Origin: Deltaproteobacteria bacterium | GTDB taxonomy: Bacteria; Desulfobacterota; Binatia; Bin18 | Assembly (NCBI GenBank): GCA_009692435.1 | Contig: SHZE01000004.1 | Location: forward strand, 1 to 63,431 | Reading direction: 5' to 3' | DNA length: 63,431 nucleotides | Shown: in pieces, positions 16,632 through 56,186 of the stretch | Layout of the letters: each line of letters opens with the position of its first letter | How positions within the stretch are numbered: position 1 is the first letter of the stretch | Notes under the pieces: generated by a model | What the model was told of the DNA's origin: nothing | Database searches by the model: none | The model's input: the letters and a program-made list of their open reading frames with translations, nothing else | Translations under genes and position numbers: made by a program

Positions 16632-16816
16632 GGTCGTAGGGGAAATCTCCCAGCTACGTACGGTCGCGCGGATGCGAACCTCGACGGCGATGGAAGGAGT
16701 GGACTTCTCGGTTGCTTTCCTTGCCCCGCCTGACACGGGATGGTAGAAGGAACCCGGCGCTACGCTTGTCGGAATCGACAGCCAGTGACCTGAGTTACTG
16801 TGAGGAAGGAGTCAAT

Positions 16817-34889: not shown

Positions 34890-37140
34890 CTACCCCACTA
34901 ACGGTCTCGCGTCGAGAAACCGGTCGAGCACATTCTTCGTGATCCGTGACACGTTATTCTTGTATTTATTGTGCGAGAGACTGCCTGCCCAGGCGATAGA
35001 ACTCGATGACCACACGGCCCCCCCATTCGGGGTCTCGTAAAAAACCATATCCGCTCGGACGAGTTCATTTTCCGTGCCCCCAAGTCCGGGATAGGTCGCG
35101 AGCAACTCCTCACAGACGACCAGATAGATGTCCGTGTGCCGACCTTGTGAGGTTGCCAGTACGAGCGCATGTGGAGGAGTGCCCAAGTGTCGATCCGCCC
35201 GGTCAATCTCCAGTCCCGCCGCGCCGCCGCCAATCAAGCCGAAATCGCCAATCAGTTCATCCTTGCTGACGCCTTCAAAGATGAACGCTGCCCGTGGATG
35301 AAAACTGTCCGGTAGGCGATGGTACGGAGCCGAGATATCGAAACCCTGAGCGGTAAATCCCGTGCCCAGGATCATTTGTGTGTGGAGGGCGACTCTGCCG
35401 CCGCCACAGGCCACCGTATTCGCCGGTAAAGCTGTGATAATACTCGCCCGGTTCCGCTGCCCAGGTGCGAATCCCGCCTTCGTTGCGTCGCACTTCGATC
35501 ACGCCGGGCAATTCTGGATGATAGGCGATACGCCAGTACCAACCGTTGGCACCCATATACATGAGGCGGCCACCTTGCTGCTGGTAAGCCATCATCGCAT
35601 CCCACATTGACTTGGAATGGTATTCGGGATGGGTGCCGGAGAGGATCACGGAGTAAGGTTTGAGCAGTGCGAACCCATGCGCGTGCAAGTCTTCATCGGT
35701 GATGACATCGAACTCATATCCCAGCGCGTCGAGCCAATTGGTGATGTGGGTATCCGCGTTAAACTGCCACAGGGAAGAGCCGTGTCCACCAAGAGCAGAG
35801 ATATGTTTTGGCCGCATATTGAGGATGGGCCGCAGGCGGGAAGAATAACACACCCCCGAGTGGTCGGAATGAACGTCATAACACGAGGCGCCATACTCGC
35901 GGTGCTCGTTGAGAAAGAGCGCGTACTTATCGAGGGGAATCAACCGACCGGCGAACACTTCCATGATCCCGGCGTTGGTGCCCATGTGCTCGTTCGCATA
36001 CGCCATGTAACTGGCGGTGGGGAGCAGGAACGCGATTTTCTTTTCCTTGCCAGGCTGCGGTCTGACAGCGAACGGGATGTAGTCTTCCTCATCGCCAGAC
36101 CGCAAGCGCGCCGCATAGAGACCGCTTTTCATCGTGGCGGGAATCGTGAGCGTGAAATCCACTTCCCAGCCCGCGTCATAAATGTCGTCGTCATGGAAAT
36201 GGATCGCGCCGTAGTGATCCGGTTTGTCGTTCCAGTTCATCGACTCGCCAGTCCAGTTGTATCCTTTCATGCCACGGACGGGCAGGTTCATGGTGTGACC
36301 GTGGAGGCGGTTCGGCGACACATCCGTGACTTTCTGTGAACTGATGTCCCGTGAGAAATCCCACATCCCAACAACGGCGGTGGTCAATGTGGCGGGGACC
36401 GGGCCACTCTTGAGCATCTCCATTTCCGCGCGGTTCAATGCGCGGTTGGCGAGTCGTGGACTGTCGATTTTGCCGTTGTACGTACAGGCCAGTTGGCCTT
36501 TGCCAGTGCCTGTGCGGCACGCCGCGAACATCAAGGGCGCGTCCGTCTCGCCAAGCTGAGTGATTTTTGTTCGTGCGCGGGCTTCTCCCGCATCCGTCGC
36601 CAGTGGATAATTGACCAGTGGCTCTTGGTAGAGTGTCACCGCGCGGGTTTTGGCATCATAGCTCGCGGCGACGAAATACCACTCACGAGCCAGCAGAGGT
36701 TTCCCGGTCGAGAGGATTTCTTGATTGCCACGTCCATCGCCAAGAATCAGCGCGAGCGAGCCATCGCGTTCCGAGATGACCAAGGCGAATCCGGCTTTGG
36801 TGCGATCGTGATACTTCGCCATGATGACCTGCTGACCCTTGTCCGGCGAGGTCGGCCAGATCATGGCTTGGCAGGAAAAGCTGTCGAGTCGTGCCAGCAC
36901 TGAAGAGTGAGGGATCGTGACATAGGAGCCTGACTCAATGACTTGTTTGCGTCCTGTGTAAGTTTTGTTGGCGGAGGTCTTAATAACTTTCTCGCGTACG
37001 CCAGGGCCAGCCGGGTTGGAATCCCCACAAATAATGCGGACGATCTCGACTTGATAGGTTGGCAACTCGCAATTGACCATGAACGAGAGCGTCTCGCCGG
37101 GGGCGGCGCTGATCTTGTCGCTATAGCCGGTGATTTTCAT
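34890..37140 (-). pseudogene. N,N-dimethylformamidase large (beta) subunit family, frameshifted near 35380
   Basis: MKITGYSDKISAAPGETLSFMV, TASYMAYAN, SCYDVHSD, GTHPEY, YMGANGWYW; the C-terminal ~170 aa (MILGTGFTAQGFD...NVSRITKNVL) is in another frame. Confidence 0.82.
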
Positions 37141-37149
37141 ACTCGGTCC

Positions 37150-37177
37150 TCACTCGTTACTCGCTACTCGTTTACTC
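37150..37177 (+). repeat. Heptamer array (NNACTCG) x4 between the DMFase subunit genes
   Basis: TCACTCG TTACTCG CTACTCG TTTACTC. Confidence 0.75.
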
Positions 37178-37477
37178 TAAGGCTCCGCCTGTATGTTTCT
37201 TCCATCGCCGTCGGAAGACCTCGCGTTCCGCGTCTTCGAGATTGGTGAAGATCTCGCCTTTCAGGAGTTTGACTGGTTTGCCCGGCTCACCGGGGAGCAA
37301 ACCGAGCGTCCACTCTTGATGGGGTTTCGTGCAGACCAGAACATATTTGTCCCGCGTCGACTCACCACGAAAAACGTTGAGCACCCGTTGTAACGCGGGA
37401 CTGTGATGGCCAATCGGTGTCTGGTTGAACTCGGCGACCACTGAGTGGTCTTGGTCGCTGACTTTATAGGTGGACAT
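37172..37477 (-). CDS. N,N-dimethylformamidase small (alpha) subunit-like protein
   Basis: EFNQTPIGHHSPALQRVL...AEREVFRRRW; directly upstream of the large subunit; SD GGAGG. Confidence 0.75.
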   Translation of the reverse strand: MSTYKVSDQDHSVVAEFNQTPIGHHSPALQRVLNVFRGESTRDKYVLVCTKPHQEWTLGLLPGEPGKPVKLLKGEIFTNLEDAEREVFRRRWKKHTGGALE

Positions 37478-37494
37478 GTGCTCCTCCAAAAATT

Positions 37495-37527
37495 CCCTCT
37501 CCTGGCTGGGAGAGGGTTGGGGTGGGG
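37495..37527. repeat. CCCTCTCC...GGGAGAGGG palindromic repeat, copy A
   Basis: CCCTCTCCTGGCTGGGAGAGGGTTGGGGTGGGG; similar to 49095..49130. Confidence 0.7.
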
Positions 37528-37566
37528 CTTTCAAGGAGAGGTTTTTTACCACAAGAAGAGCAGAGT

Positions 37567-37650
37567 CGTCATTCCCGCGCAGGCGGGAATCCAGGACTCC
37601 CGTAAGCCACGGGACACTGCGCCTGGATGCCCGCCTGCGCGGGCACGACG
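37567..37650. repeat. CGTC-type REP doublet, copy 2
   Basis: Both palindromic arms are identical to those of 22956..23039; the spacer has diverged. Confidence 0.9.
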
Positions 37651-37759
37651 GACCAGAAAACCCCGGCATGCGGAAAACCCGTAAAATTGCGGGCAACGAG
37701 AAAAACCTACCCTTCAAAGCTGGGGTGAGGGGGATCAAAGAGAGATTCCTTGTGACGCG

Positions 37760-39295
37760 TTAGCCTTTTGATGCAGCAGACGAAGCAAACGCCGCCGCTA
37801 CGTTGCGCCGCTGAATTTTCCCTGTGGCGGTGCGCGGAATCTCTTTGGCCATATAAATCATCTTAGGCACCTTGAACGCCGACAGCCGCTCGCGGCAATG
37901 CGCGACTAACGTGGCTTCCGTGGCATCGCCGCGCAGCACCACGACCGCCGCGACCTCTTCCCCGTATTTCGTATCAGGGACACCGAAGCACACCGCTTCG
38001 GCTACGGCAGGGTGAGTGAGGAGGACTTCATCAATCTCACGAGGAGATATTTTCTCGCCACCCCGATTGATGAGTTCCTTCAAGCGACCAACAAGAGTGA
38101 GATACCCCTCGGCGTCGATAATGCCTTGGTCTCCAGTGCGGAACCATCCATGAGTGAAAGACGTCGCATTAGCTTCGGGATTGTTGTGGTAGCCACGGGT
38201 GACATTGGCCCCTTGAATGACCACCTCGCCTTGAGAGCCGGTAGGCAGTAGTGCCCCGGCGTCATCCATGATGGCGACCTGCACGCCAGTGCCTTGACCA
38301 ACCGAGCCAGGTTTACGTTGCGCTGGCGGCAACGGATTCGAGGCCATTTGATGCGCTGCTTCGGTCATGCCGTAGGCTTCGAGCACAGGGCAGCCGAAGC
38401 GATTTTCCAGGCCAGCCATTGTTGCTGGTGCTAAGGCGGAACTACACGACCGGATAAAGCGGAGCCCACTCGTTCCTGGAGCCGGAGCCTGATCTTCATC
38501 GGCCCGTGCCAGCAACACTTGATGAATCGTAGGGACAGCAGTGTACCATGTCGCCCGGTGTGTCTTGACGACGGGCCAGAATGAACTAGCGCTGAACCGT
38601 GCCGGAACCACCAGAGTCCCACCAGAGCGAAACGTCGCGAGCGTTGACGCGACGAGGCCGTGCACGTGAAACAACGGCATCACACACAGTGAAACGTCTT
38701 CCGGTGTCAGCGTGTATGTGGCCATCACGTTGGCCGCTGAGGTCAGCAAGTTGGCATGCGAGAGCGGGACCCCTTTGGGGCGGCTGGTAGTCCCGCTGGT
38801 GTGCAGGAACAGTGCAACATCATCAGGCGTGGGAGTAGTGTGCTTACGGGGAAGGGAAGATGCCTTCGTGACCTCGAAACGGACTTGGCCGTCTGGCGCG
38901 AGCGAGGCTTCAATCAACAGCGTGTCAGCAGGAGCTGCCGCGCGTGCCTGCTCACCGCCACCTGGTGGGACGATCAACACTTTGGCGTCAATATCTTCCA
39001 AGTAAAAGCGAAATTCATCGGTGGTGTAGGCCGGATTCAATGGGGCCGCAGTCGCCGCGGCAGTGGCAATGCCCAGGAATGCGATGATGACTTCCACACC
39101 ATTGGGTAATGCCATTGCCACCCGGTCGCCACGTCCGATGCCGAGCGTGTGGAGAGTAGCCGCGAACTGTTCCACCTGGGCATGCAAAGCACTGTAAGTG
39201 ACCATCGGTCCGCCTTCGGGGACGATGAGGGCGGGGTGGGTGGGATGGCTCACTGCGAGGAGATCGCTGAGTATCGAAGGTGATTGGGTATTCAT
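37760..39295 (-). CDS. Acyl-CoA synthetase, oxalate--CoA ligase (AAE3/Pcs60)-like
   Basis: LFLHTSGTTSRPKGVPL, LRFIRSCSSAL, EAYGMTEAAHQMASNPLP, PRTATGKIQR. Confidence 0.8.
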   Translation of the reverse strand: MNTQSPSILSDLLAVSHPTHPALIVPEGGPMVTYSALHAQVEQFAATLHTLGIGRGDRVAMALPNGVEVIIAFLGIATAAATAAPLNPAYTTDEFRFYLEDIDAKVLIVPPGGGEQARAAAPADTLLIEASLAPDGQVRFEVTKASSLPRKHTTPTPDDVALFLHTSGTTSRPKGVPLSHANLLTSAANVMATYTLTPEDVSLCVMPLFHVHGLVASTLATFRSGGTLVVPARFSASSFWPVVKTHRATWYTAVPTIHQVLLARADEDQAPAPGTSGLRFIRSCSSALAPATMAGLENRFGCPVLEAYGMTEAAHQMASNPLPPAQRKPGSVGQGTGVQVAIMDDAGALLPTGSQGEVVIQGANVTRGYHNNPEANATSFTHGWFRTGDQGIIDAEGYLTLVGRLKELINRGGEKISPREIDEVLLTHPAVAEAVCFGVPDTKYGEEVAAVVVLRGDATEATLVAHCRERLSAFKVPKMIYMAKEIPRTATGKIQRRNVAAAFASSAASKG

Positions 39296-39386
39296 GGTTT
39301 TTGCTTCTACCCTAACATGGGCCAATGTCCCAGTAGGGGGCTCATGCAATGAGAAAAGTGCTCAACCAGGCGAGCACGAAGACAGC

Positions 39387-40911: not shown

Positions 40912-41514
40912 ATGGCTCCGACACCAATCAAACTCTACTTCGACTACAAAAGCCCCTTTGCCTATTTGGCGAAAGATGAAGCGTACGCACTTGAAGAAGA
41001 TTATCATGTGCACATTGAGTGGCTTCCCTACGTTCTCGATATTCCCGAAGCCTTGGGCGATCTCCCGACCCGTACCCAGCAGCAATGGCGGAAAATTCGG
41101 TACCTGTACATGGATGCTCGTCGCTGGGCGAATAAAAAAGGGCTCGTTGTCCGCGGGCCGCAAAAAATCTTTGATTCGTCGGTGGCAGCGATCGGCATGT
41201 TGTACGCGCAAAGGCAGGGAAAGTTCCGCCCCTACCATGACCGCGTGTACGAACGGTTCTGGCGACGTGAGTTAGACATCGAAGATCAGAACGCCATTGC
41301 TGCGATATTGGTTGAGATTGGTGCGAATGGCGAAGGCTTCCTCACGTATATCGCTGGGGCGGGTCGAGCCGATCTTGCGGCTATTCAGCAGCGAGCTGAA
41401 GCAGATGAAATTTTTGGCGTACCGATTTTCATCGTTGAAGACGAGATGTTCTGGGGCCACGATCGCGTTCCGTTGCTGAGAGAGAAACTAGATGTGATGG
41501 GAGTGAAAAAGTGA
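40912..41514 (+). CDS. DsbA-family / 2-hydroxychromene-2-carboxylate isomerase-like protein
   Basis: YFDYKSPFAYL, IFGVPIF, MFWGHDR. Confidence 0.88.
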   Translation: MAPTPIKLYFDYKSPFAYLAKDEAYALEEDYHVHIEWLPYVLDIPEALGDLPTRTQQQWRKIRYLYMDARRWANKKGLVVRGPQKIFDSSVAAIGMLYAQRQGKFRPYHDRVYERFWRRELDIEDQNAIAAILVEIGANGEGFLTYIAGAGRADLAAIQQRAEADEIFGVPIFIVEDEMFWGHDRVPLLREKLDVMGVKK

Positions 41515-42437
41515 AGGCGAATTCCATGAGGATGTGGACATCTGTTGCGATTCAAGTCGTTGTTCCTGTTTTTTTTCTGGCCCCTTTTCTCAGGGCGGAA
41601 GAAGCAAAACTCACCAATCGCTATTTTCTCAGCGGTGACGGGACTGTGTCGTTGACCAATCCGAAAACCAACCGTTCGGTGCGTGTTCACTACCGCACTG
41701 AAGAGGGGACCTATCCGCAAGAAGCGCGACAGGAGATTGATCGCCTTTTTGGGGTGTCCGCCAATTCTGGCGATCACATCTCGTTGCGTCTCGTCTCGGC
41801 TTTGGACTATGTCGAAGATCAGTTTGACTTGCCAATTGTCTTGATTTCTGGGTATCGGAGTGAAGAGTACAATAGCAATCTCCGAGCAAAGGGCGGTGGC
41901 GCGGCGAAAGCCAGCATGCATATCGAAGGCATGGCCGCGGATATTAAAGTACGAAAAAACCTGGGCAAGAAAATTTGGGAAAGCGTGAAAGCCATAGGTT
42001 GTTGCGGAATTGGCTTTTATGGCGGAGATTCGGTGCATATCGACACCGGCCCGGCACGCTATTGGACGCAGGCGACTTCCAAAGTGCGCACGAACATTTC
42101 CGAGAATAATAAGCAGGTAATGGTGCGCACCGATCAAGACATTTACCGCCCTGGAGAAAAAATTGAAGTCAAACTCGCGCGAATCACGGCCTATCCGGTC
42201 AGTATGATGAGTGGGTTTACCCTCGTTCGTGATGGTCAGGAGCCGCAAGACTTTTCTTTTGATGGGAAAGGGACGGAGTGTCACCCGGTGCGAGAGGCGG
42301 CGGAACGGGCGGTGATGTGGACGGTTCCGGAGAATTTCTCGCCAGCCGAACGGCTGCGTTTCCGTCTCCGGTTTTGCGACAAGCAGTTTCCGGAAATGCC
42401 GGATCAGATTGAATCGAATGAGATTGCCGTGAGGTAG
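41511..42437 (+). CDS. DUF882/YcbK (peptidase M15-like) exported protein with a C-terminal extension
   Basis: Signal-like N-terminus; ISGYRS, SMHIEGMAADI, VHID. Confidence 0.82.
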   Translation: MKANSMRMWTSVAIQVVVPVFFLAPFLRAEEAKLTNRYFLSGDGTVSLTNPKTNRSVRVHYRTEEGTYPQEARQEIDRLFGVSANSGDHISLRLVSALDYVEDQFDLPIVLISGYRSEEYNSNLRAKGGGAAKASMHIEGMAADIKVRKNLGKKIWESVKAIGCCGIGFYGGDSVHIDTGPARYWTQATSKVRTNISENNKQVMVRTDQDIYRPGEKIEVKLARITAYPVSMMSGFTLVRDGQEPQDFSFDGKGTECHPVREAAERAVMWTVPENFSPAERLRFRLRFCDKQFPEMPDQIESNEIAVR

Positions 42438-42599: not shown

Positions 42600-42788
42600 T
42601 CAAGAAGGTTCTGGAAGGCCAAGCTGCTTGCAAATCCGTGCCGCTGTAAAGTTGGGTATCTCACGATGGCGTGGTACAGAGGTGCGTCGATTTGTTGCAG
42701 GGTTTTCCCAAATCGAGTGTTCTCCGCCTTCACGGATAAACCGGCAACCATGAAAACTCAGATATTGGAGTAGGTCTCGCCGCTTCAT
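42600..42788 (-). CDS. HicA toxin
   Basis: MKRRDLLQYL...REGGEHSIW.N...VPRHREI. Confidence 0.9.
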   Translation of the reverse strand: MKRRDLLQYLSFHGCRFIREGGEHSIWENPATNRRTSVPRHREIPNFTAARICKQLGLPEPS

Positions 42789-43069
42789 GAGGCGACTGCT
42801 TGAGGAACGACTTTGATCTGAGATGCTGCTGTGAGGAGCAAGTAAATAGGCTCTTCTAGGTCAGCTTCTGGATCAGTACACGCGGGATCGGGTTGTGGTA
42901 ATGACTCACCGCGCAGCAGATTTGTTTCGGCCATATCTACCAAGGCGCTGGCAAGCGAACGGCGTGCTTCTTGTAGATCGACGCCAAAGGATATCGTTCC
43001 GGGGAAATCGAGGACCTCAGCGTGAACTCCTTGGTCGAGGAACTTGTACATAGCTTTGTAGGTGAGCAT
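42785..43069 (-). CDS. HicB antitoxin (hicBA order)
   Basis: HAEVLDFPGTISFGVDLQEARRSL; ATGA overlap with hicA. Confidence 0.85.
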   Translation of the reverse strand: MLTYKAMYKFLDQGVHAEVLDFPGTISFGVDLQEARRSLASALVDMAETNLLRGESLPQPDPACTDPEADLEEPIYLLLTAASQIKVVPQAVAS

Positions 43070-43191
43070 GGTTTGACCTCTCATCGGGTTTCATCCTAGC
43101 GCCCGAAAGAACTACGAGGTTCATAACGAAGCGAGCGGTCCAGAACAAGAGAGCACCTCATTGTCTTATCCTCTGCAAGCCAGCGTTTCAG

Positions 43192-43241: not shown

Positions 43242-44420
43242 ATGCCTGCATGGGATCTGAAAGATCAGGCGGCGGTGAGCGGTGTTGGGCATTCGCCGTA
43301 TGGCAAGCGGCTCAATCGCAGCACAATTGACTTGGCGGGTGAGGCCATTCGCAACGCGCTGGATGACGCGGGCCTGACACGTGATGACCTTGATGGACTC
43401 ATTGTGAGTTTCGGCACCCCTATTGGGGCAGATGCGGATACGTTGGCGTATGCGCTGGGGCTCAAGCTCAGAATGTACAACCAAACCTGGGCGCACGGAC
43501 GATTTACCGCCACCTGTATTCAGAATGCGGCAATGGCGGTGAGTGCAGGGCTAGCGAACCATGTGGCGTGTTTAGCGTCGGTCAGCTTCTCGGGCTTTCG
43601 TAAACCGATGATGGGTGGGGCAGGGGATAATGAAGGCGCACGCGAAGGTGGAGGCGGACATGGCGAAGACCCCGTGTATGGCATGACCTCACCGGGAGCT
43701 GGAGCAGCACTGGTCGCGCAAAAATACTTTCATCGCTATGGAGCCACCAGTCGCCAACTGGCTTCGGTCGCTGTAGCGTTTCGCAAACATGCCGCGCTCA
43801 ACCCCGCCGCGCTCATGCGCGAGCCGATCACCGTGGAAGATCACCAGAATTCACGCTATGTCTGCGAGCCGCTCCATCTCTTGGACTATTGCCAGATCAA
43901 CGACGGGGCCGCCTGTGTGATTGTCTCACGCAGTGATCGTGCGCGGGACCTCAAGAAGAAACCAGTCTATATCAGCGGCATGCAAGGGCTCCCCGCCGGA
44001 CGTGAGGAGTTTATCTGGACGCATCCAGGGTTCGGCACCTCGCAACAAAAGGTATTCGACTACAAGCCCGACCTGCAACCGGTCTATCAAATGGCGGGCG
44101 TGACGCAGAAAGAGATGAGCGCGTTCTTTACCTATGATGCTTTCGCGATTTTGGTATGGACCGCGCTGGAACGCTGGGGATACTGCAAGCCCGGAGAAGC
44201 GGCGGCGTTTACTCAAGACGGGCGCATCGAATTGGGCGGGGCGTTGCCGATCAACACCAATGGCGGCCTGATTTCCGAGGCGCATGTGATGGGATGGAAT
44301 CATCAGGTCGAAATAGTGCGCCAGTTACGTGGCGAGTGTGGACCACGGCAAATCGCCAACGCCCAACTGATTCAGTGGGGCAATGCCTATGGCGACTCGC
44401 TGATCTATCGAAAGGGGTAA
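43242..44420 (+). CDS. Thiolase-like (SCP-x/Ltp2-type) protein
   Basis: DGAACVIV, TYDAF, PINTNGGLISEAH; SD GGAGG. Confidence 0.88.
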   Translation: MPAWDLKDQAAVSGVGHSPYGKRLNRSTIDLAGEAIRNALDDAGLTRDDLDGLIVSFGTPIGADADTLAYALGLKLRMYNQTWAHGRFTATCIQNAAMAVSAGLANHVACLASVSFSGFRKPMMGGAGDNEGAREGGGGHGEDPVYGMTSPGAGAALVAQKYFHRYGATSRQLASVAVAFRKHAALNPAALMREPITVEDHQNSRYVCEPLHLLDYCQINDGAACVIVSRSDRARDLKKKPVYISGMQGLPAGREEFIWTHPGFGTSQQKVFDYKPDLQPVYQMAGVTQKEMSAFFTYDAFAILVWTALERWGYCKPGEAAAFTQDGRIELGGALPINTNGGLISEAHVMGWNHQVEIVRQLRGECGPRQIANAQLIQWGNAYGDSLIYRKG

Positions 44421-44424
44421 GCGC

Positions 44425-44847
44425 ATGGCGGAATACAAAAAACCTTTACCAGCGATTTCTTCACTCAGTGAACCCTATTGGACGGGACTCAAACATCGTG
44501 ACCTCAAACTCCAACGCTGCAACGACTGCCAGACGCTGTGGTATCCACCGGGACCATTCTGTCCGGGCTGTTGGTCGCGCACCTTCACGTGGCAGAATCT
44601 CAGTGGGCGCGGGAAAGTCAACTCGTGGGTGATTTTTCACCAAGCGTATTTCTCCTCGGTCAAGGACGAAATTCCTTACAACGTCGCCGAGGTGGAGCTG
44701 GAAGAAGGGCCGCGGCTGCTGACGAATCTCGTCGGTATCGACAACGCGGATATTAAGATTGGCATGCCGGTGGAAATTGTCTTTGATGACGTGACGGAAG
44801 AAGTAACGTTGGCGAAGTTTCGGCCCCTCGGCGGGGGTAGCAAGTAA
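44425..44847 (+). CDS. DUF35 Zn-ribbon/OB-fold protein
   Basis: LQRCNDC...CPGC, ELEEGPRLLTNLV. Confidence 0.9.
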   Translation: MAEYKKPLPAISSLSEPYWTGLKHRDLKLQRCNDCQTLWYPPGPFCPGCWSRTFTWQNLSGRGKVNSWVIFHQAYFSSVKDEIPYNVAEVELEEGPRLLTNLVGIDNADIKIGMPVEIVFDDVTEEVTLAKFRPLGGGSK

Positions 44848-44857
44848 CGAGTGGCGA

Positions 44858-44924
44858 GGATTTTGGAGTTGGGCTTTGGGAGTTGGCCTAATGACTCGAA
44901 ACTCGAAACTCATTACTCAGAACT
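44858..44924. repeat. Paired heptamer arrays (GGAGTTG/GGCTTTG and AACTCGA)
   Basis: 44858..44885 and GACTCGA AACTCGA AACTCAT TACTCAG at 44893..44920. Confidence 0.85.
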
Positions 44925-44939
44925 GAAGTGGGAGGCCCT

Positions 44940-46091
44940 ATGCCTGGCATTCTCGAAGGAATTCGTGTTTTTGATTTGACGATCGCGGCGGTGGGTCCGT
45001 GGGCGAGTAAGTTGCTTGGGGAACTCGGGGCGGATGTTATCAAAGTGGAAGCTCCAGAAGGGGAGTTGTCGCATGCGATCCCGCCGCCGATCAAAGGGAC
45101 TGCCGTCCTCTACATCTCGGCCAATTTCAATAAACGTCATATCGTGCTTGATCTCAAGAACGAGGGCGACCGCGCCATTGCCCTCAGGCTGGTCGAGAAG
45201 AGTGATATTTTTGTCCAGAATATGCGCCCCGGCGCGGTCGAGCGGTTGGGGCTGGGCTTCGATGTCGTGTCGAAAATCAATCCCCGGATGATTTATGTGG
45301 CAGCTTCGGCATACGGGCGTGTGGGGCCGATGGCGAAGGAAGCCGGGATTGATCCCCTCCTGCAAGCGTTTTCCGGTTGGTGCAGTATTACCGGTCAGCA
45401 AGGCGGGGAAGGAGAGATGTTTCGCCACCTCGCGCACCTCGACATCTCCACAAGCACAATGATTGTGGAAGCTGTCCTGCAAGCGCTGTTGGCCCGTGAG
45501 CGGACCGGCAAAGGCCAGAAGATCGAGATTGAAATGCTTGCTGGTGCCTTGTCGTTGCAGACCAGTCGCCTCGCGGAATACTTCGCGACTAATGAACAAC
45601 CGAGGCCAATGGGCAGCGCGGTGACGACGACCGTGCCGCATCAAGCGTTCCGGTGTGAAGATCAACAATACCTTGCCGTTGGCGTGGTGAGTGAGGATCA
45701 ATGGCCACGCTTTTGTCGAGCGCTGAAACTTGACGATTTGTGTCTCGATTCCCGCTTCGCGACCAACCCACAACGAGTGAGGAATCGCGCCGAGTTAATT
45801 CCGCTTGTTGAAGCACGGTTTCGCACCAAACCGGCGGCCTGGTGGGCTATCCGTCTCACGAAAGAGCAAGTGCCGAACAGTCGCATCATGGATTTTGAGG
45901 GACTGCGGCATCACCCGCAAGTGCTGCAAAACCAGCAGATTGTGGAATTACAGACTCCGCATTGGGGGGCGCTGCAGGTCGATGGCTTGCCGTGGAAGTT
46001 CGAGAAAACACCAGCGGGCCCGATTCGCCCAGGCGGACTGAAGGGGGAGCATACTGACGAGGTGTTGCGGGAGTTTGGGCTTATCGAGTGA
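44940..46091 (+). CDS. Family III CoA-transferase, subunit retaining the catalytic Asp
   Basis: VFDLTIAAVGP, NFNKR, AHLDISTS. Confidence 0.88.
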   Translation: MPGILEGIRVFDLTIAAVGPWASKLLGELGADVIKVEAPEGELSHAIPPPIKGTAVLYISANFNKRHIVLDLKNEGDRAIALRLVEKSDIFVQNMRPGAVERLGLGFDVVSKINPRMIYVAASAYGRVGPMAKEAGIDPLLQAFSGWCSITGQQGGEGEMFRHLAHLDISTSTMIVEAVLQALLARERTGKGQKIEIEMLAGALSLQTSRLAEYFATNEQPRPMGSAVTTTVPHQAFRCEDQQYLAVGVVSEDQWPRFCRALKLDDLCLDSRFATNPQRVRNRAELIPLVEARFRTKPAAWWAIRLTKEQVPNSRIMDFEGLRHHPQVLQNQQIVELQTPHWGALQVDGLPWKFEKTPAGPIRPGGLKGEHTDEVLREFGLIE

Positions 46092-46109
46092 GGCCGGGGC
46101 ACTGAGGGG

Positions 46110-46157
46110 AAAAAGTCAAAAGGCAAAGCGCAAAAGTCAAAAGGCAAAAGTGAAAAT
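46110..46157 (+). repeat. Heptamer array (CAAAAGT/CAAAAGG) x6 abutting the ATG at 46158
   Basis: AAAAAGT CAAAAGG CAAAGCG CAAAAGT CAAAAGG CAAAAGT GAAAAT|ATG. Confidence 0.88.
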
Positions 46158-47414
46158 ATGAGCGGAGCGCTATCAGGATTTACTATCGTCGATCTCACGC
46201 AAGGACTCTGCGGTCCGTTTGGTTCGATGCGTCTTGGCGACGCTGGGGCGGAGATCATCAAGATTGAACCATTGGCTGGCGATTTTTCTCGTGCGATGGG
46301 GCCGCCGTTTGTTGGTGATGAGAGCGCGGTGTTTCTGAGTCTCAATCGCAATAAGAAAAGTGTGGCGCTCGATATTCATTCGCCCGAAGGTCAGGACCTC
46401 GTTCGTCAATTGGTGGCTAAGGCCGATGTGCTGCTCGAAGACCTCGGTCCGGGTGAAGCCGAGAAACTAGGCCTTGGCTACGACACGCTCCGAATTCTGA
46501 ACCCTAAGCTCGTCTACTGCGCCATTAGCGCGTTTGGGGAAGAAGGTCCGCTGCGCAACATGCCTGGGGCTGAGTTGGTGATTCAAGCGATGGCGGACTA
46601 CACCAACTCACTCGGAAGAATCGGCGAACCCCCAGTGCGGACGGGGACCGATGTTGCCAGTATCAATACCGGCATCTTTGCGTCACAAGCGATCACCGCC
46701 GGGCTCTTTCATCGGGTCCGCAAGGGAGAAGGGCAGCGCGTCGCCGTTAATATGTTGAGCACGTTGCTCCACATGCGCGGGATTATGTGGACGGCGATGA
46801 CGGATCCTGACGAGTGGTATGGCTTTCACCTTGACCATTACACCAGGCCACCCGATCAGGGCTACAAAACCAAGGATGGGCATGTGTACTTTGGTTTGCG
46901 GCGTGGCAATAGCGAAGATTGGGATCGGCTCCTGATTTCTCTTGGCATGATTGAGAGCTTGAGCGACCCTCGGTTCGCGGGCTTTGGCCGCGATGCCACG
47001 AGTATTGGTCGCTATGCCGCCGAAGTGAAACCGCTGTGGGAGCAGGGGTTCAAGGACATGACGAGTGAAGAAGTCGTCCGCTTGATTCATGAATTCAATG
47101 GGGATGCCGTACCATTCATGGAGTACCCACAACTCGTTGCCCACCCACAGATACAGGCGTTGGGTGTGGTGCAAGAGATTGACCATCCGACGGCTGGAAA
47201 GTTTAAGACTGTTGGTCCGGTGTGGCGCTTCTCGGACACGCCAGCGAAGATTCAGAGTCCGCCTCCGACATTGGGGCAGCATACCGAAGAGGTGCTGGAG
47301 AAACTCGGAGTGAGCCGCGCAGAGCTGCGCCGATTGGAAAACTCAGGGATTGTCGGAAAGTCTTCACCTAATCCCAGGATTCCTTTGATTGATGAGGAGA
47401 CCGTGAGAATCTGA
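46158..47414 (+). CDS. Family III CoA-transferase-like subunit, catalytic Asp apparently replaced by Ser
   Basis: IVDLTQGLCGP, LNRNKKS, but GTDVASINTG at the A-D-x-x-x-G position. Confidence 0.85.
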   Translation: MSGALSGFTIVDLTQGLCGPFGSMRLGDAGAEIIKIEPLAGDFSRAMGPPFVGDESAVFLSLNRNKKSVALDIHSPEGQDLVRQLVAKADVLLEDLGPGEAEKLGLGYDTLRILNPKLVYCAISAFGEEGPLRNMPGAELVIQAMADYTNSLGRIGEPPVRTGTDVASINTGIFASQAITAGLFHRVRKGEGQRVAVNMLSTLLHMRGIMWTAMTDPDEWYGFHLDHYTRPPDQGYKTKDGHVYFGLRRGNSEDWDRLLISLGMIESLSDPRFAGFGRDATSIGRYAAEVKPLWEQGFKDMTSEEVVRLIHEFNGDAVPFMEYPQLVAHPQIQALGVVQEIDHPTAGKFKTVGPVWRFSDTPAKIQSPPPTLGQHTEEVLEKLGVSRAELRRLENSGIVGKSSPNPRIPLIDEETVRI

Positions 47415-48260
47415 ATCTCCGGTGGGACACGAAAACGCACTGGAATAATGCTTGTCCCCACACCGGTACTGACGAACAGGTGTCGTCCCTGCTCAATAAT
47501 ATGGCCAGCCGCATAACGTTGGCCATATTTGGAAGGAACGATTGGTCTGCCGACCAATGGGAGATTGACCTGACCGCCGTGTGTATGCCCGGCTAACGTG
47601 AGACTGACGCGCGCTGGAATATCAGGAAACACATCTGGGCTATGGGTGAGTAGCAGAATGGGGTCGTCATCAGGAATGTCTTTCAAGGTGCCGGGTATAT
47701 CAGGAGTCCTGGTCCATAAGTCGGCCAAACCAGCAACCCAGAAGAATCGGTCCCCTGTAGACCCGAATAGCTTCGTTCTCCAAGACGCGAATCCGCGCCT
47801 TTTGTAGAGCATTCCTGACCCGTTCACCATCGTACCACCAGTCGTGATTGCCCAGGACCGCAATGACGCCGAGCGGAGCACGGAGGTTTTTCAATTCTTG
47901 CGCAATCCGTTCTGGCTCAACGGATGATCCTCCGAGAACCCCGCTAATGACGAAGTCGCCCAGGAGCACGATAATATCTGGAGTTTCGCTATTGGTGCGT
48001 GCAACAACGGCGTGAAGTTTCTCAACATCCAGGTGTGGAGCGCCGATGTGCAGATCGCTCAATACGGCAATCCGCAGATCATGATGTTCCCCGTGCCATT
48101 GTGAGACCTCGATAGGGATGTGTTGGACGGTGACTTGGTCAGGTTCGATGACGAATGCCCACACGCCGAGAAGCACGGTAAGCAGTGAAAGGGTCTTCCA
48201 CAGCACAAGAACTTTGGGATTGAACCGTGATGGACTCGGCATGAACATTCGTGCCGTCAT
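47252..48260 (-). pseudogene. Calcineurin-like metallophosphoesterase (YkuE/YaeI-like), frameshifted near 47755
   Basis: LSDLHIG, LGDF, VLGNHDW in one frame; LTHSPD, LAGHTHGGQV in another; the break is at TAC AGGGGAC CGA. Confidence 0.8.
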
Positions 48261-52229: not shown

Positions 52230-52322
52230 GTCTTGTGCCTCCGGCAGCGAACAGCGGGGACGATACCAGAGTTTCTAGAGCAACGAAACCTATCCAGAGA
52301 GAAGCGAAAGAGCGTGAGCGCG

Positions 52323-52351
52323 TTGACACTAGCAGGGTGAAGCTTTATAAA
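52323..52351 (+). promoter_or_regulatory. Near-consensus sigma70 promoter for the shc operon
   Basis: TTGACA-17 nt-TATAAA. Confidence 0.75.
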
Positions 52352-52462
52352 ATTCCCACTGTAAAAACCGGAGAGAAGAGTTGTTCCGGTCTGCCTCTCG
52401 TCTGCCTGATCTTCTGGGGCCAGGGGCCGCGAGGCAGGGAAGTTGTGGTAGTGGAAGAGAAC

Positions 52463-54400
52463 ATGCCGTCTCCCTCCTGGTCCCCATCAACCAACAAGAG
52501 TGAATTTCTCCAAGGTGTTGAGAACGCGATTGCCCACGCTCAGCGATACTTCCAGCGCGAGCAGCACGCCGATGGCTATTGGTATTATCCGCTCGAAGCC
52601 AATGCCACGATGGATGCCGAGTACATCTTCTTCAACCATTTCATGGGGCGTGTGGATGAAAAGAAGCACCGTCGCATCTGTGAGCATGTGCTGTCGGTCC
52701 AAGGCGACGATGGAGCTTGGCCATTGTTTTACAAAGGCCCTGGGCACTTAGGGAACACGATTGAAGCGTATTTCGCGCTGAAACTCACTGGGTATGCGGC
52801 CAATCATCCCGCGCTCGTCAAAGCCCGCGCCTTCATTCTCGCGAAAGGCGGGCTCGCGCGGGCGCAAGTATTTACGCGCATTTTTCTCGCCTACTTCGGG
52901 CAGTTTCCGTGGCGTGGCGTTCCCGCCGTACCCGTTGAATTAAATTTGCTACCCCCGTGGTTTCCGGTCAACATTTACGAGATGTCGAGTTGGGCACGGG
53001 GCACCGTGGTGCCGTTGAGTATCATTCTCGCGCACCAGCCCTCCATTCCGATCGCGCCAGAGTGTGACGTCGCCGAACTCTGGAAAGACCCCCCGGAACA
53101 ATCGGAGCTGAGTTTCCCGCGTTCGTCTCCGGGGCTGTCATGGGAAAGTTTTTTCATTGCAGCGGACAAAGCGCTCAAGTTCCTTGGCCACAGTCCGATG
53201 AAACCATTACGCCCACGCGCGCTCAAAAAAGCGGAACGTTGGGTGTTGGATCATCAGGATGTCAATGGTGGGTGGGGAGGGATTCAACCGGCCATGTTGA
53301 ACTCAGTGATGGCCCTCCACAGTCTTGGCTATCGAGATGACCATCCCGCCGTGGCGAAAGGGATTCAGGCGATCGAAGACTTCCTTATGGAAACTGGTGG
53401 ACATCTGCTCTTTCAGCCTTGTATATCGCCGGTCTGGGATACTGTATGGGCGGTGAAGGCATTGATGGATTCTGGCTTACCTACTGACCACCCGGTAGTG
53501 ACCAAAGCCGCCAACTGGATTATCGACCAACAGATATTCAAGCCTGGTGACTGGCAAGTGAAGAATCCTGAATTAGAGCCCGGAGGGTGGGCGTTTGAGT
53601 TCGCCAACGATTGGTATCCTGATGTCGATGACACCGCCGTTATACTCTTCACTCTCAAGCGGGTGACCGGACTCGACGAGCGCAAGAAAGATCATGCGCT
53701 TGCACGCGGAGTGCACTGGACCCTGGGGATGCAGAGTCGCAACGGTGGCTGGGGCGCGTTCGACACGGACAATACGCTTGATCTTTGGAACCAGATGCCG
53801 TTTGGGGACATGAAGGCGATGATTGATCCGCCAACAGCCGACCTCGCTGGTCGGCTGTTGGAGATGATGGGCACGTTCGGTTACGACAAGGAATTTGGTC
53901 GCGCGCAACGAGCGCTCATCTTCCTGCGCAACGTGCAAGAGCGAGATGGTTCATGGTGGGGGCGATGGGGTGTCAATTATATTTATGGCACTTGGTCGGT
54001 GTTGGTTGGGCTGCGAGCCATCGGGGAAGACATGAATCTTCCATACGTGCGGCGTGCGGTCGCGTGGCTTAAGTCACGTCAAAATACCGATGGTGGATGG
54101 GGGGAAGATTGTTTATCGTATTGGGAACCGGAGCGAGCAGGGAAGGGCGACAGCACTCCTTCACAAACGGCGTGGGCAGTCCTGGGGCTCTTGGCCGCAG
54201 AAGAAGAGGTCGGCGTCGAGGTCCTCCGTGGCGTTGGTTATCTCCTCACGCACCAGGAATCGGCGGGGTCATGGTCGGAAGACTTGTTTACGGGCACCGG
54301 ATTTCCACAACATTTTTACCTACGGTATTACGGCTATTGTAACTATTTTCCTCTCATGGCGCTGGGGCGGTTTCGCACCCAGGTGCAGGCCCGGACCTAG
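52463..54400 (+). CDS. shc: Squalene--hopene cyclase
   Basis: YPDVDDTA (DxDD), QW repeats (QGDDGAW, QERDGSW), GTGFP.HFYL.Y. Confidence 0.96.
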   Translation: MPSPSWSPSTNKSEFLQGVENAIAHAQRYFQREQHADGYWYYPLEANATMDAEYIFFNHFMGRVDEKKHRRICEHVLSVQGDDGAWPLFYKGPGHLGNTIEAYFALKLTGYAANHPALVKARAFILAKGGLARAQVFTRIFLAYFGQFPWRGVPAVPVELNLLPPWFPVNIYEMSSWARGTVVPLSIILAHQPSIPIAPECDVAELWKDPPEQSELSFPRSSPGLSWESFFIAADKALKFLGHSPMKPLRPRALKKAERWVLDHQDVNGGWGGIQPAMLNSVMALHSLGYRDDHPAVAKGIQAIEDFLMETGGHLLFQPCISPVWDTVWAVKALMDSGLPTDHPVVTKAANWIIDQQIFKPGDWQVKNPELEPGGWAFEFANDWYPDVDDTAVILFTLKRVTGLDERKKDHALARGVHWTLGMQSRNGGWGAFDTDNTLDLWNQMPFGDMKAMIDPPTADLAGRLLEMMGTFGYDKEFGRAQRALIFLRNVQERDGSWWGRWGVNYIYGTWSVLVGLRAIGEDMNLPYVRRAVAWLKSRQNTDGGWGEDCLSYWEPERAGKGDSTPSQTAWAVLGLLAAEEEVGVEVLRGVGYLLTHQESAGSWSEDLFTGTGFPQHFYLRYYGYCNYFPLMALGRFRTQVQART

Positions 54401-54456
54401 AGCGAGGGAGGGAGAAAAACGACGAGTAAGCCGGAAAGAAGAAGAGAAAAGTCATA

Positions 54457-54966
54457 ATGCGCATCAAAGCAAAAACACTGACGATTGAAACCACTGCAAA
54501 GGTACAACTGTTTGATCTCACCCAAGAAGTGAAAACGTTTGTCGCCGAAACCGGGGTGTGGAACGGACAAGGCGTGATCTCCACGTTACATACCACGACG
54601 GGTATTTTTTTTACTGAAACCCAGGATGCGCTCTGGGATGATGTCGAAGCCTTTCTTCGCCAGCTTGTGGATGAACGAGTAGGGTACAAACACAATGATT
54701 CCCGCTTTTCTGACTGTGACCGCCAGAACGCGGCCGCGCATTTGCGCGCCATGCTCCTGGGCGGATCATTGGCCCTCCAAATAGAAGACGGAGGGGTAGT
54801 GCTTGGGCAGTTTCAGCGAATTGTTTTTGCTGAGCTTGACGGCCCCCGCCCTCGTTCGCTACGTATGCAGTTCATGGGCGAAGGGGTGGAGCTGCTGGCG
54901 CATGGAATCCAAGGCTGGGAACACACGCCAACTCTAGAGCTTCCGCGAAACGGGGGATTGGAATGA
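54457..54966 (+). CDS. yjbQ: YjbQ family protein
   Basis: HTTTG, NAAAHL, LGQFQRIVFAELDGPRPR. Confidence 0.88.
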   Translation: MRIKAKTLTIETTAKVQLFDLTQEVKTFVAETGVWNGQGVISTLHTTTGIFFTETQDALWDDVEAFLRQLVDERVGYKHNDSRFSDCDRQNAAAHLRAMLLGGSLALQIEDGGVVLGQFQRIVFAELDGPRPRSLRMQFMGEGVELLAHGIQGWEHTPTLELPRNGGLE

Positions 54967-56144: not shown

Positions 56145-56186
56145 GAGACAAAACAGCGGTAAATAATCCAGGGGAACGGGGAGCGT

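What the first reader, a model, noticed from the sequence alone, without database searches (positions are those of the whole stretch)
43242..47414. Thiolase-like + DUF35 + tandem CoA-transferases, one lacking the catalytic aspartate
Seen: one promoter-led run of four genes. Subunit 1 keeps Asp (AHLDISTS), as does the separate enzyme at 18001 (AMGDVSTG), while subunit 2 has DVASINTG. The thiolase-like protein has TYDAF and SEAH motifs. Known: family III CoA-transferases need this Asp for the anhydride intermediate; two-subunit members exist (BbsEF); thiolase-like/DUF35 pairs act as aldolases or acyltransferases in steroid and aromatic catabolism. Inference: a heterodimeric transferase with one pseudo-enzyme subunit feeding an uncharacterised CoA-dependent C-C cleavage pathway.
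Basis: partly seen in the sequence, partly recalled or inferred. Interest (0 to 1): 0.55.

Follow-up and report, generated by a model that had tools for sequence, protein, structure and literature searches.

The report
Split one-active-site CoA-transferase with Ltp2-like lyase
This is a real, conserved four-gene unit of some uncultured Binatia bacteria. It pairs a two-subunit CoA-transferase, in which only one subunit keeps the catalytic aspartate, with a thiolase-fold carbon-carbon-cleaving enzyme and its zinc-finger partner; the layout is already known from other bacteria, so it is an uncharacterised member of a known kind.

Summary
Four co-directional genes (43242-47414) encode a thiolase-fold protein, a DUF35 zinc-ribbon/OB protein and two family III CoA-transferase paralogs that are 30% identical to each other.

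**Missing aspartate.** Subunit 1 keeps the catalytic Asp (D168). In subunit 2, every alignment puts Ser168 at that column. The loss is conserved: the column is S/N/G in all 114 of the 120 nearest clusters where the motif could be read.

**Heterodimer.**
- The four-gene order is kept in every Binatia locus that has enough flanking DNA.
- The two transferases are fused into one chain in a Dehalococcoidia relative and in about 100 other cluster representatives. Nearly all of those fused proteins carry exactly one Asp.
- A complex model scores 0.97 against 0.00 for the controls.

**Known precedents.** In benzylsuccinate CoA-transferase (PDB 9fn0), one chain has Ala at the Asp column. [quoted passage not shown] Earlier notes of this scan reached similar conclusions on other DNA.

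**Open point.** "Pseudo-enzyme" is likely but not proven. Subunit 2 has an invariant Asp165 at the N-cap of the helix whose N3 position normally carries the nucleophile.

**The "thiolase".** It is closest to the steroid aldolase Ltp2. It keeps Ltp2's base Tyr and probably lacks a nucleophilic Cys, so lyase chemistry is more likely than thiolysis.

The substrate is unknown. Interest is modest.

The parts
43242..44420 (+). Thiolase-fold protein (392 aa), Ltp2-like. Tyr298 (44133-44135) lies at the column of Ltp2's base Tyr294. His348 (44283-44285) lies at the column of Ltp2 Tyr344 and of the thiolase GHP His. Cys92 (43515-43517) is conserved but is probably inside helix 88-101, not at the nucleophile position (Gly86).
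   Evidence: (6ok1_A 2.9e-63; BbsB 7pxp_C 2.2e-30); motif table in PMC12329534
44425..44847 (+). DUF35 protein (140 aa): rubredoxin-like zinc ribbon with CNDC (32-35) and CPGC (46-49), plus an OB fold. Its start is 4 bases after the stop of the thiolase-like gene.
44848..44939 (.). Spacer holding a word-repeat hairpin (GGAGTTGGG... facing ACTCGAAACTCGAAACTC) and the GGGAGG ribosome-binding site of transferase 1.
44940..46091 (+). Family III CoA-transferase subunit 1 (383 aa), the catalytic subunit. It keeps Asp168 (45441-45443), Asn94 and Arg96 of the QNMRPG motif. It has lost the canonical GDxxR (now GELSH).
46158..47414 (+). Family III CoA-transferase subunit 2 (418 aa; orthologs are 400 aa). 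Ser168 (46659-46661) sits at the catalytic column. Asp165 (46650-46652) is invariant at the helix N-cap. The EN-motif Asn is replaced by Asp95 (46440-46442). GDxxR and NRxK are retained.

Best explanation
The four genes form a self-contained acid-cleavage module found in a few families of Candidatus Binatia. [quoted passage not shown] It has a single canonical active site, built around Asp168 of subunit 1. Subunit 2 supplies the second half of the interlocked fold and the small domain that closes that site, while its own site is degenerate. The enzyme moves CoA from an acyl-CoA donor onto an unknown carboxylic acid, probably a beta-hydroxy or beta-keto (di)carboxylate. The Ltp2-like thiolase-fold protein, held by its DUF35 zinc-ribbon partner, then cleaves the C-alpha-C-beta bond of that CoA ester. 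Retro-aldol chemistry with Tyr298 as base is more likely than thiolysis. The short acyl-CoA released can serve as the next CoA donor, so no ligase, dehydrogenase or hydratase is needed. Shown here: the gene set, the missing Asp and its conservation, conserved synteny, fusion in relatives, and residue patterns. Inferred: the heterodimer in vivo, the dead second site, the lyase chemistry, CoA recycling, and the substrate class.
For: (1) Missing Asp. Ser168 is at the catalytic column in three alignments; all 61 canonical homologues have Asp there. The motif G[TSA]DVA[SNG]xxTG was found in all 114 of the 120 nearest clusters where it could be read, so this is not decay in one genome. (2) Heterodimer. 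The order thiolase-DUF35-ct1-ct2 is kept in L021, L022, L025, L028-L030 and L032, and in L031 as far as that contig reaches. The two are fused in one 811-aa ORF in a Dehalococcoidia genome, with Asp in the N half and Ser in the C half. Of the 150 nearest 50%-cluster representatives, about 110 are two-domain chains, and 97 of these have exactly one Asp. Complex model: ipSAE 0.97, best control 0.00; this mark was reached by 58 of 80 solved complexes and 2 of 110 mismatched pairs; the runs share at least 94% of contacts and the partner's pLDDT is at least 88. Because family III dimers are solved, this pass mainly shows likeness. (3) Degenerate second site. In Asp-less domains the EN-motif Asn is kept in only 6 of 97 (replaced mostly by D, S or G), against N in 93 of 97 Asp-bearing domains, and the following Arg is kept in 18 of 97 against 66 of 97. 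These residues bind pantetheine and phosphate in cis with the Asp, according to the MCT structure paper (PMC9196870). (4) Precedent. In PDB 9fn0, chain A has Ala and chain B has Asp at the column. (5) Lyase partner. The best solved relative is TcLtp2 (2.9e-63). Tyr298 aligns with Ltp2's base Tyr294. The ungapped Ltp2 alignment and the helix register put Gly86, not Cys92, at the thiolase nucleophile column. Column 92 is Ser in L029/L030 and Thr in Ltp2. (6) Self-contained. The flanking genes differ between genomes, apart from a DUF882 gene.
Against: Asp165 in subunit 2 is invariant (27 of 27 in A2). It sits at the N-cap of helix 166-189 while the catalytic column is N3. It also lies in the predicted interface. 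So the second site may be remodelled rather than dead. Subunit 2 is about as conserved as subunit 1 (72% against 77% identity to L030). Subunit 1 itself has lost the canonical GDxxR. For the lyase, Cys92 is invariant in the 120 nearest clusters and His348 matches the thiolase GHP His. HMMER aligns Cys92 with the nucleophile of 7yvy and BbsB, though at low posterior probability. The structure model of this protein is poor (mean pLDDT 47). There is no expression, biochemical or substrate evidence.
Confidence: 0.55

Rival explanations
1. Subunit 2 is not a pseudo-enzyme. The nucleophile has moved one helical turn, from N3 (residue 168) to the N-cap (Asp165). Alternatively, Asp165 together with Asp95 forms a second, non-canonical site, or acts in trans in the site of subunit 1. 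The heterodimer would then carry out two chemistries, as proposed for the transferase/lyase DddD.
For: Asp at -3 is invariant in the ct2 clade. It is present in 84 of 142 Asp-less domains but in only 1 of 111 Asp-bearing ones. It is also seen in 9fn0 chain A ('pdnqA'). N-cap and N3 side chains are neighbours in a helix capping box (established knowledge; helix limits). Column 0 is variable and mostly small (S/G/A/N), as if making room. Subunit 2 keeps GDxxR and NRxK.
Against: The EN-motif Asn, the Arg after it and the stacking Phe, which hold CoA next to the nucleophile, are lost in the same domain. About 40% of Asp-less domains in the wider family have no Asp at -3. An N-cap Asp is also a common purely structural residue. 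No residue-level 3D comparison could be made with these tools.
Confidence: 0.2
2. The thiolase-like protein is a true thiolase of the BbsB/archaeal type, with Cys92 as nucleophile and His348 as activator. The module is then a beta-keto-acid pathway (CoA transfer followed by thiolysis), analogous to BbsEF+BbsAB or PcaIJ+PcaF.
For: Cys92 and His348 are invariant in the 120 nearest clusters. HMMER aligns Cys92 with the nucleophile Cys of 7yvy and of BbsB 7pxp_C. Those active thiolases also have Ala at the third motif position (HDAF here YDAF). NCBIfam gives weak BbsA and BbsB hits.
Against: These C-to-C alignments have low posterior probability and need gaps. The confident ungapped alignment to Ltp2, the distance to Gly103 and the next strand, and the modelled helix 88-101 place the nucleophile column at Gly86. 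Column 92 is Ser in two Binatia species and is deleted in the Dehalococcoidia homologue. The motif His is replaced by Tyr, the aldolase base (PMC12329534). The homologues beside fused transferases (L033, L104) have Tyr at the Ltp2 Tyr344 column.
Confidence: 0.25
3. The two transferase genes are merely neighbours. Each forms its own homodimer, and subunit 2 has a non-transferase role, for example a racemase-like or purely binding function.
For: Family III members are normally homodimers. The family includes non-transferases such as the racemase MCR and the isomerase Mct (hits).
Against: The pair is adjacent in all orthologous loci and fused in many relatives, with a strict one-Asp pattern. The two partners have lost different canonical residues.
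Confidence: 0.05

Closest known systems
[quoted passage not shown] 2018, PMC6006322; characterised members DddD and PtmU4)
   Same: Two unlike family III domains work as one unit and only one carries the catalytic Asp. The nearest relatives of subunit 2 in a 1.84-billion-protein library are mostly such fused chains, including a 46%-identical Dehalococcoidia fusion of both subunits.
   Different: Here the two domains are separate genes with a 66-base spacer. The Asp is in the first unit, whereas the paper reports it in the C-terminal domain of PtmU4 and its homologues. There is no evidence for DMSP or thioacid chemistry. The module is coupled to a thiolase-fold/DUF35 pair.
Succinyl-CoA:(R)-benzylsuccinate CoA-transferase BbsEF with benzoylsuccinyl-CoA thiolase BbsAB (PDB 9fn0, 7pxp)
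   Same: A two-subunit family III transferase in which one chain lacks the Asp (9fn0_A has Ala, 9fn0_B has Asp), encoded together with a thiolase-fold protein and a DUF35 zinc-finger subunit. The Asp-less chain also has Asp at -3.
   Different: These are not orthologs. Both subunits hit SUGCT better than they hit 9fn0. In the tree the ct2 clade lies among Asp-bearing canonical enzymes, apart from the genome's BbsE-like paralogs. No BbsCD, BbsG or BbsH genes are present. The thiolase-fold protein is nearer to Ltp2 (2.9e-63) than to BbsB (2.2e-30) and has YDAF instead of HDAF.
Steroid side-chain aldolase Ltp2-ChsH2(DUF35) of Thermomonospora curvata (PDB 6ok1), and CtSal-CtShy(DUF35)
   Same: Ltp2 is the best solved relative of the thiolase-fold protein. 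The base Tyr (Ltp2 Tyr294 of YDHF) is conserved as Tyr298 of YDAF. Gly falls at the thiolase nucleophile column in the ungapped alignment. A DUF35 partner is present.
   Different: Ltp2's acid Tyr344 is His348 here. The motif's third residue is Ala, not His (Ltp2) or Cys (Sal). The DUF35 is a free-standing protein, not the tail of a MaoC hydratase. No steroid-degradation genes are nearby. The partner enzyme is a CoA-transferase instead of a hydratase.
Human SUGCT (succinate-hydroxymethylglutarate CoA-transferase, PDB 9br6)
   Same: It is the best solved sequence match of both subunits (1.7e-67 and 9e-64), which hints at dicarboxylate substrates.
   Different: In SUGCT every subunit has the Asp. 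NCBIfam scores for the succinate-glutarate model are 210-218 bits against a cut-off of 750, so these are not equivalogs.

Membership tests
Family III CoA-transferase (PF02515), subunit 1 | Full-length CoA_transf_3 domain | tested here: met
   6.7e-106, profile positions 1-366
Family III CoA-transferase (PF02515), subunit 1 | Catalytic Asp at the Frc Asp169 / SUGCT column | tested here: met
   Asp168 in HLDISTS
Family III CoA-transferase (PF02515), subunit 2 | Full-length CoA_transf_3 domain | tested here: met
   2.7e-92, profile positions 1-366; AF2 model pLDDT 85.9
Family III CoA-transferase (PF02515), subunit 2 | Catalytic Asp at the Frc Asp169 / SUGCT column | tested here: not met
   Ser168. 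Orthologs have S/N/G; 61 of 61 canonical homologues have Asp
Family III CoA-transferase (PF02515), subunit 2 | Asn and Arg of the EN(F/Y)RPG motif that hold CoA | tested here: not met
   EDLGPG; residue roles taken from PMC9196870
[quoted passage not shown] | Two family III domains in one polypeptide | tested here: not met
   Two genes here. Fused in L033 and in about 110 of the 150 nearest representatives
[quoted passage not shown] | Catalytic Asp in only one of the two domains | tested here: met
   D+S here; 97 two-domain relatives have exactly one Asp, 6 have two
BbsEF-type heteromeric CoA-transferase | Adjacent genes for one Asp-bearing and one Asp-less subunit | tested here: met
BbsEF-type heteromeric CoA-transferase | Orthology to BbsE/BbsF | tested here: not met
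   9fn0 hits of 1e-43 to 3e-30 are weaker than the SUGCT hits; separate clades in the tree
BbsEF-type heteromeric CoA-transferase | Physical heteromer | not testable with these tools
   Only a model: ipSAE 0.97, best control 0.00. Gene fusion in relatives is indirect support.
Thiolase (SCP2 / BbsB type) | Nucleophilic Cys at the N-terminus of helix N-alpha-3 | tested here: inconclusive
   HMMER aligns Cys92 with it at low posterior probability. The Ltp2 alignment, helix register and model put Gly86 there. Column 92 is C, S or T among relatives.
Thiolase (SCP2 / BbsB type) | His of the HDCF/HDAF motif | tested here: not met
   YDAF; Tyr298 is invariant in 120 clusters
Thiolase (SCP2 / BbsB type) | His of the GHP motif | tested here: met
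   His348 aligns with the His of 7yvy, 4u4e and 7pxp_C
Ltp2-type steroid aldolase | Catalytic base Tyr294 (YDHF) | tested here: met
   Tyr298 aligns with it (PMC12329534)
Ltp2-type steroid aldolase | Catalytic acid Tyr344 | tested here: not met
   His348 sits at that column. The L033 and L104 homologues do have Tyr.
Ltp2-type steroid aldolase | DUF35 partner | tested here: met
   The adjacent gene has PF12172+PF01796 and a Cys4 ribbon. Binding itself was not tested.
DUF35 (ChsH2 C-terminal type) | Four-Cys zinc ribbon plus OB fold | tested here: met
   CNDC...CPGC; PF12172 2.8e-10, PF01796 5.5e-21

The most novel reading that the evidence does not exclude
The Asp-less unit of split and fused two-domain family III CoA-transferases is not a dead scaffold. 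Its clade-invariant N-cap Asp (Asp165 here), together with the Asp that replaces the EN-motif Asn, forms a second catalytic or trans-acting site. That site would give these enzymes an added chemistry (lyase, hydrolase or acyl relay), which would explain why the Asp-less unit is as conserved as the catalytic one across more than 100 sequence clusters.
Probability: 0.15. Interest if true: 0.6.

Novelty: new member of a known kind. Interest (0 to 1): 0.33.

Why it matters
Family III CoA-transferases are very abundant in soil and groundwater bacteria; this 2.1-Mb genome alone has 20 such domains. Most are annotated uniformly as 'CaiB/BaiF family'.

Recognising which paralogs are obligate partners with a single live site would improve annotation and pathway reconstruction. 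The conserved residue signature of the Asp-less unit would help identify them.

The module gives a compact, testable case of acid activation followed by C-C cleavage with CoA recycling, in a lineage with no cultured members.

The unexplained invariant Asp at -3 is a concrete question for anyone working on BbsEF, DddD or PtmU4.

Tried and rejected
- **Expression.** No RNA holder was listed for the stretch.
- **Complex model.** It passed, but solved family III dimers make a pass expected, so I treat it as likeness only.
- **Structure of the thiolase-like protein.** Mean pLDDT was 47. Only the helix limits in the better N-terminal part were used, no fold search was run, and the nucleophile loop itself (residues 84-89) is below pLDDT 50.
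- **Literature on BbsEF.** Searches for a paper on the BbsEF structure found none in the library. One broad search was uninformative.
- **Substrate from neighbours.**
  - Binatia flanks are unrelated genes: TauE, DsbA, DUF882, FKBP, peptidase M24, an esterase scoring below its cut-off.
  - Fused relatives sit with Amidohydro_2, MmgE/PrpD, SBP_bac_5, SDRs and LLM oxidoreductases. This suggests polycarboxylate or aromatic-derived acids but names no compound.
- **Beta-ketoadipate link.** I considered a link through the downstream alpha/beta hydrolase and dropped it: the PcaD model scores 70 bits against a cut-off of 256, and the gene is not conserved next to the cluster.
- **Geometry of Asp165.** A residue-level 3D superposition was not possible, because the tools return no coordinates.

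Full report
**1. What is there**

The window is contig C19 of a 2.14-Mb Candidatus Binatia MAG, 83% complete. Between 43242 and 47414 lie four genes on the + strand:

| Gene | Coordinates | Size | Pfam |
|---|---|---|---|
| Thiolase-fold protein | 43242-44420 | 392 aa | PF22691 + PF00108 |
| DUF35 protein | 44425-44847 | 140 aa | PF12172 zinc ribbon + PF01796 OB fold |
| Family III CoA-transferase 1 | 44940-46091 | 383 aa | PF02515, 6.7e-106 |
| Family III CoA-transferase 2 | 46158-47414 | 418 aa | PF02515, 2.7e-92 |

The DUF35 ribbon has the four cysteines CNDC...CPGC. The two transferases are 29.8% identical to each other. The spacers are 4, 92 and 66 bases. The two longer ones hold the short word repeats typical of this genome.

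The consensus scan found no promoter, and no RNA run holds the stretch. An operon is therefore inferred only from spacing and conserved order.

**2. The missing aspartate is real and conserved**

- phmmer against human SUGCT (9br6) aligns the segment without gaps and places Ser168 of subunit 2 opposite the catalytic Asp. Asp168 of subunit 1 aligns with it.
- In a MAFFT alignment with 61 canonical homologues from many phyla, all 61 have Asp at this column. The subunit 2 clade has S, N or G.
- The motif G[TSA]DVA[SNG]xxTG was found in all 114 of the 120 nearest 90% clusters where it could be read. These clusters are 72-94% identical to subunit 2.

**3. Evidence that the two transferases work as one enzyme**

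*Conserved order.* Orthologs at 60-94% identity occur in only 25 of 201 sampled Binatia genomes: family f1 18/24, f2 1/1, f9 5/25. Outside Binatia the best genome match drops to 46%. Wherever flanks are available the order thiolase-DUF35-ct1-ct2 is kept. This holds in L021, L022, L025, L028-L030 and L032, and in L031 as far as that contig reaches.

*Fusion in a relative.* In the 46%-identical Dehalococcoidia locus L033, the two transferases are one 811-aa ORF. The N half keeps Asp and the C half has Ser. A thiolase-like/DUF35 pair is transcribed divergently next to it.

*Fusion is common.* An exhaustive HMMER search of 1.84 billion cluster representatives shows that the nearest relatives of subunit 2 are mostly fused two-domain chains of 750-830 aa. 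The table counts the 150 nearest representatives by whether each domain keeps the catalytic Asp (D = Asp present, x = Asp absent, in chain order).

| Asp status of the domains | Representatives |
|---|---|
| Dx | 50 |
| xD | 47 |
| DD | 6 |
| Single domain, no Asp | 39 |

*Complex model.* The model of the two subunits scores ipSAE 0.97, with the best control at 0.00. That mark was reached by 58 of 80 solved complexes and 2 of 110 mismatched pairs. The runs share at least 94% of contacts and the partner's pLDDT is at least 88. Interlocked family III dimers are well represented among solved structures, so this shows likeness rather than independent proof.

**4. Is subunit 2 a pseudo-enzyme?**

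*Evidence for a dead site.* The same domain that lost the Asp also lost neighbouring CoA-holding residues. In subunit 2 the canonical ENFRPG motif reads EDLGPG. Across 97 one-Asp fusions:

| Residue | Asp-bearing domains | Asp-less domains |
|---|---|---|
| EN-motif Asn kept | 93 | 6 |
| Following Arg kept | 66 | 18 |
| GDxxR Arg kept | 66 | 87 |

According to the MCT structure paper, the Asn, the Phe and an Arg bind CoA in the same subunit as the Asp, and the small domain of the other subunit closes the site (PMC9196870).

The GDxxR row goes the other way: the Arg is kept more often in the Asp-less domain. In this locus subunit 1 has GELSH there. The two partners have thus lost different canonical residues, as expected if only one of the two symmetric sites is still used.

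*Evidence against a simple dead site.*
- Asp165, three residues before the catalytic column, is invariant in the clade (27 of 27 in alignment A2).
- Asp at that position occurs in 84 of 142 Asp-less domains but in only 1 of 111 Asp-bearing ones.
- The AF2 model (pLDDT 85.9) starts the helix at residue 166. Asp165 is therefore the N-cap and residue 168 is N3. These two positions are spatial neighbours in a helix capping box (established knowledge).
- Residues 157-166 also lie in the predicted subunit interface.

A relocated or trans-acting carboxylate therefore cannot be excluded. I put it at about 0.2.

**5. This layout is already known**

- In benzylsuccinate CoA-transferase (PDB 9fn0), chain A has Ala at the catalytic column, with Asp at -3. 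Chain B has Asp at the column.
- Dong et al. [quoted passage not shown] Its characterised members are DddD and PtmU4, and the paper reports a conserved Asp in the C-terminal domain of PtmU4 and its homologues (PMC6006322).
- This genome has 20 PF02515 domains, including five adjacent or fused pairs. In three of the pairs one partner lacks the Asp: S here, G on C34 and Y on C6.
- In a FastTree phylogeny the subunit 2 clade sits among Asp-bearing canonical enzymes, apart from the BbsE-like Asp-less paralogs. The Asp was therefore lost more than once.
- Earlier notes of this scan reached similar conclusions on other DNA.

**6. The thiolase-fold protein**

Its best solved relative is the steroid side-chain aldolase TcLtp2 (6ok1_A, 2.9e-63). 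BbsB scores 2.2e-30. The residue roles below come from PMC12329534.

| Position here | Equivalent in relatives |
|---|---|
| Tyr298 of YDAF | Ltp2's base Tyr294 (true thiolases have His or Asn) |
| His348 | Ltp2's acid Tyr344, and the thiolase GHP His |
| Ala300 | Cys304 of CtSal's YDCY motif (the catalytic acid), and the Cys of the thiolase HDCF motif |

*Cys92.* It is invariant in the 120 nearest clusters, and HMMER aligns it with the nucleophile of 7yvy and BbsB. That alignment has low posterior probability and needs gaps. Four observations point elsewhere:
- The confident, ungapped alignment to Ltp2 puts Gly86 at the nucleophile column.
- The distance to the conserved Gly103 and the following strand fits Gly86.
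- The modelled helix 88-101 places Cys92 inside the helix. The model is weak: mean pLDDT 47 overall, 51-87 per block across residues 71-110, and below 50 in the loop 84-89 itself.
- Column 92 is Ser in two Binatia species, Thr in Ltp2, and deleted in the Dehalococcoidia homologue.

The homologues beside fused transferases (L033, L104) have Tyr at the Tyr344 column. I therefore favour lyase (retro-aldol type) chemistry at about 0.55, over true thiolysis at about 0.25.

**7. How the module probably works (inference)**

The heterodimer transfers CoA from a short acyl-CoA to an unknown acid. The Ltp2-like/DUF35 complex cleaves the resulting ester. The released acyl-CoA is reused as donor.

This would explain why the four genes travel alone, without a ligase, dehydrogenase or hydratase. 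The flanks vary between genomes, except for an upstream DUF882 gene.

Two weak hints bear on the substrate. Both subunits are most similar to SUGCT, though far below the NCBIfam cut-offs. The fused relatives keep company with Amidohydro_2, MmgE/PrpD, SBP_bac_5 and SDR genes. These point loosely to polycarboxylic or aromatic-derived acids, but no compound can be named.

**8. Verdict**

This is an uncharacterised, split member of a known enzyme design, coupled to an Ltp2-like lyase. The one truly open point is the role of the invariant Asp at -3 in the Asp-less unit.

Noticed in passing
window 44848-44939 and 46092-46157: Both spacers inside the gene run carry short word repeats. The first has a purine-rich arm (GGAGTTGGG...GGGAGTTGG) facing ACTCGAAACTCGAAACTC. 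The second has two direct copies of AAAAGTCAAAAGGCAAA just before the start of transferase 2. They belong to the heptamer-repeat class already noted in this genome.
   Followed up: partly
window 47252-48260, minus strand: A calcineurin-like metallophosphoesterase (PF00149) is split over two overlapping ORFs in different frames (47252-47881 and 47700-48260). This is either a frameshifted gene or an assembly error.
   Followed up: no
own genome: C92:6425-8845 (-) and C92:9535-12027 (+): Two neighbouring, divergently oriented fused two-domain family III CoA-transferases (806 and 830 aa). In these, both domains keep the Asp ('DD'), the rare type among two-domain proteins. The C-terminal half of one resembles 9fn0 chain B (8.2e-71).
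   Followed up: partly
own genome: C34:30805-33285 (-) and C6:22233-24710 (+): Two more adjacent transferase pairs whose upstream member lacks the Asp (Gly and Tyr). The C34 Asp-less member is BbsE-like (9fn0_A, 4.5e-52). Its Asp-bearing partner has an in-frame TAG.
   Followed up: partly
window 46158-47414: Transferase 2 is 418 aa here but 400-402 aa in nearly all orthologs. The last 18 or so residues are an unconserved, low-confidence tail (pLDDT below 50 from residue 404).
   Followed up: partly
window 41511-42437 and 42785-43084: A DUF882/peptidase M15 gene precedes the cluster here and directly precedes it in several other Binatia genomes (L021, L022, L032). In this genome an 800-base gap lies between them, with a HicB-like (UPF0150, below cut-off) ORF on the opposite strand.
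   Followed up: partly
window 16712-19221: The separate, Asp-bearing family III transferase (17935-19221; best NCBIfam match formyl-CoA transferase at 283 bits, below cut-off) follows a luciferase-like (LLM class) oxidoreductase gene. An LLM gene also follows the closest fused relative (L104).
   Followed up: no
window 52235-57131: A hopanoid/isoprenoid gene group: squalene-hopene cyclase, a UPF0047 protein, DXP reductoisomerase and a squalene/phytoene synthase-like gene.
   Followed up: no
window 35275-39349, minus strand: An N,N-dimethylformamidase beta-subunit-like protein (PF20254 with a lectin-like domain) lies next to a small unknown ORF and a FadD7-like acyl-CoA ligase.
   Followed up: no
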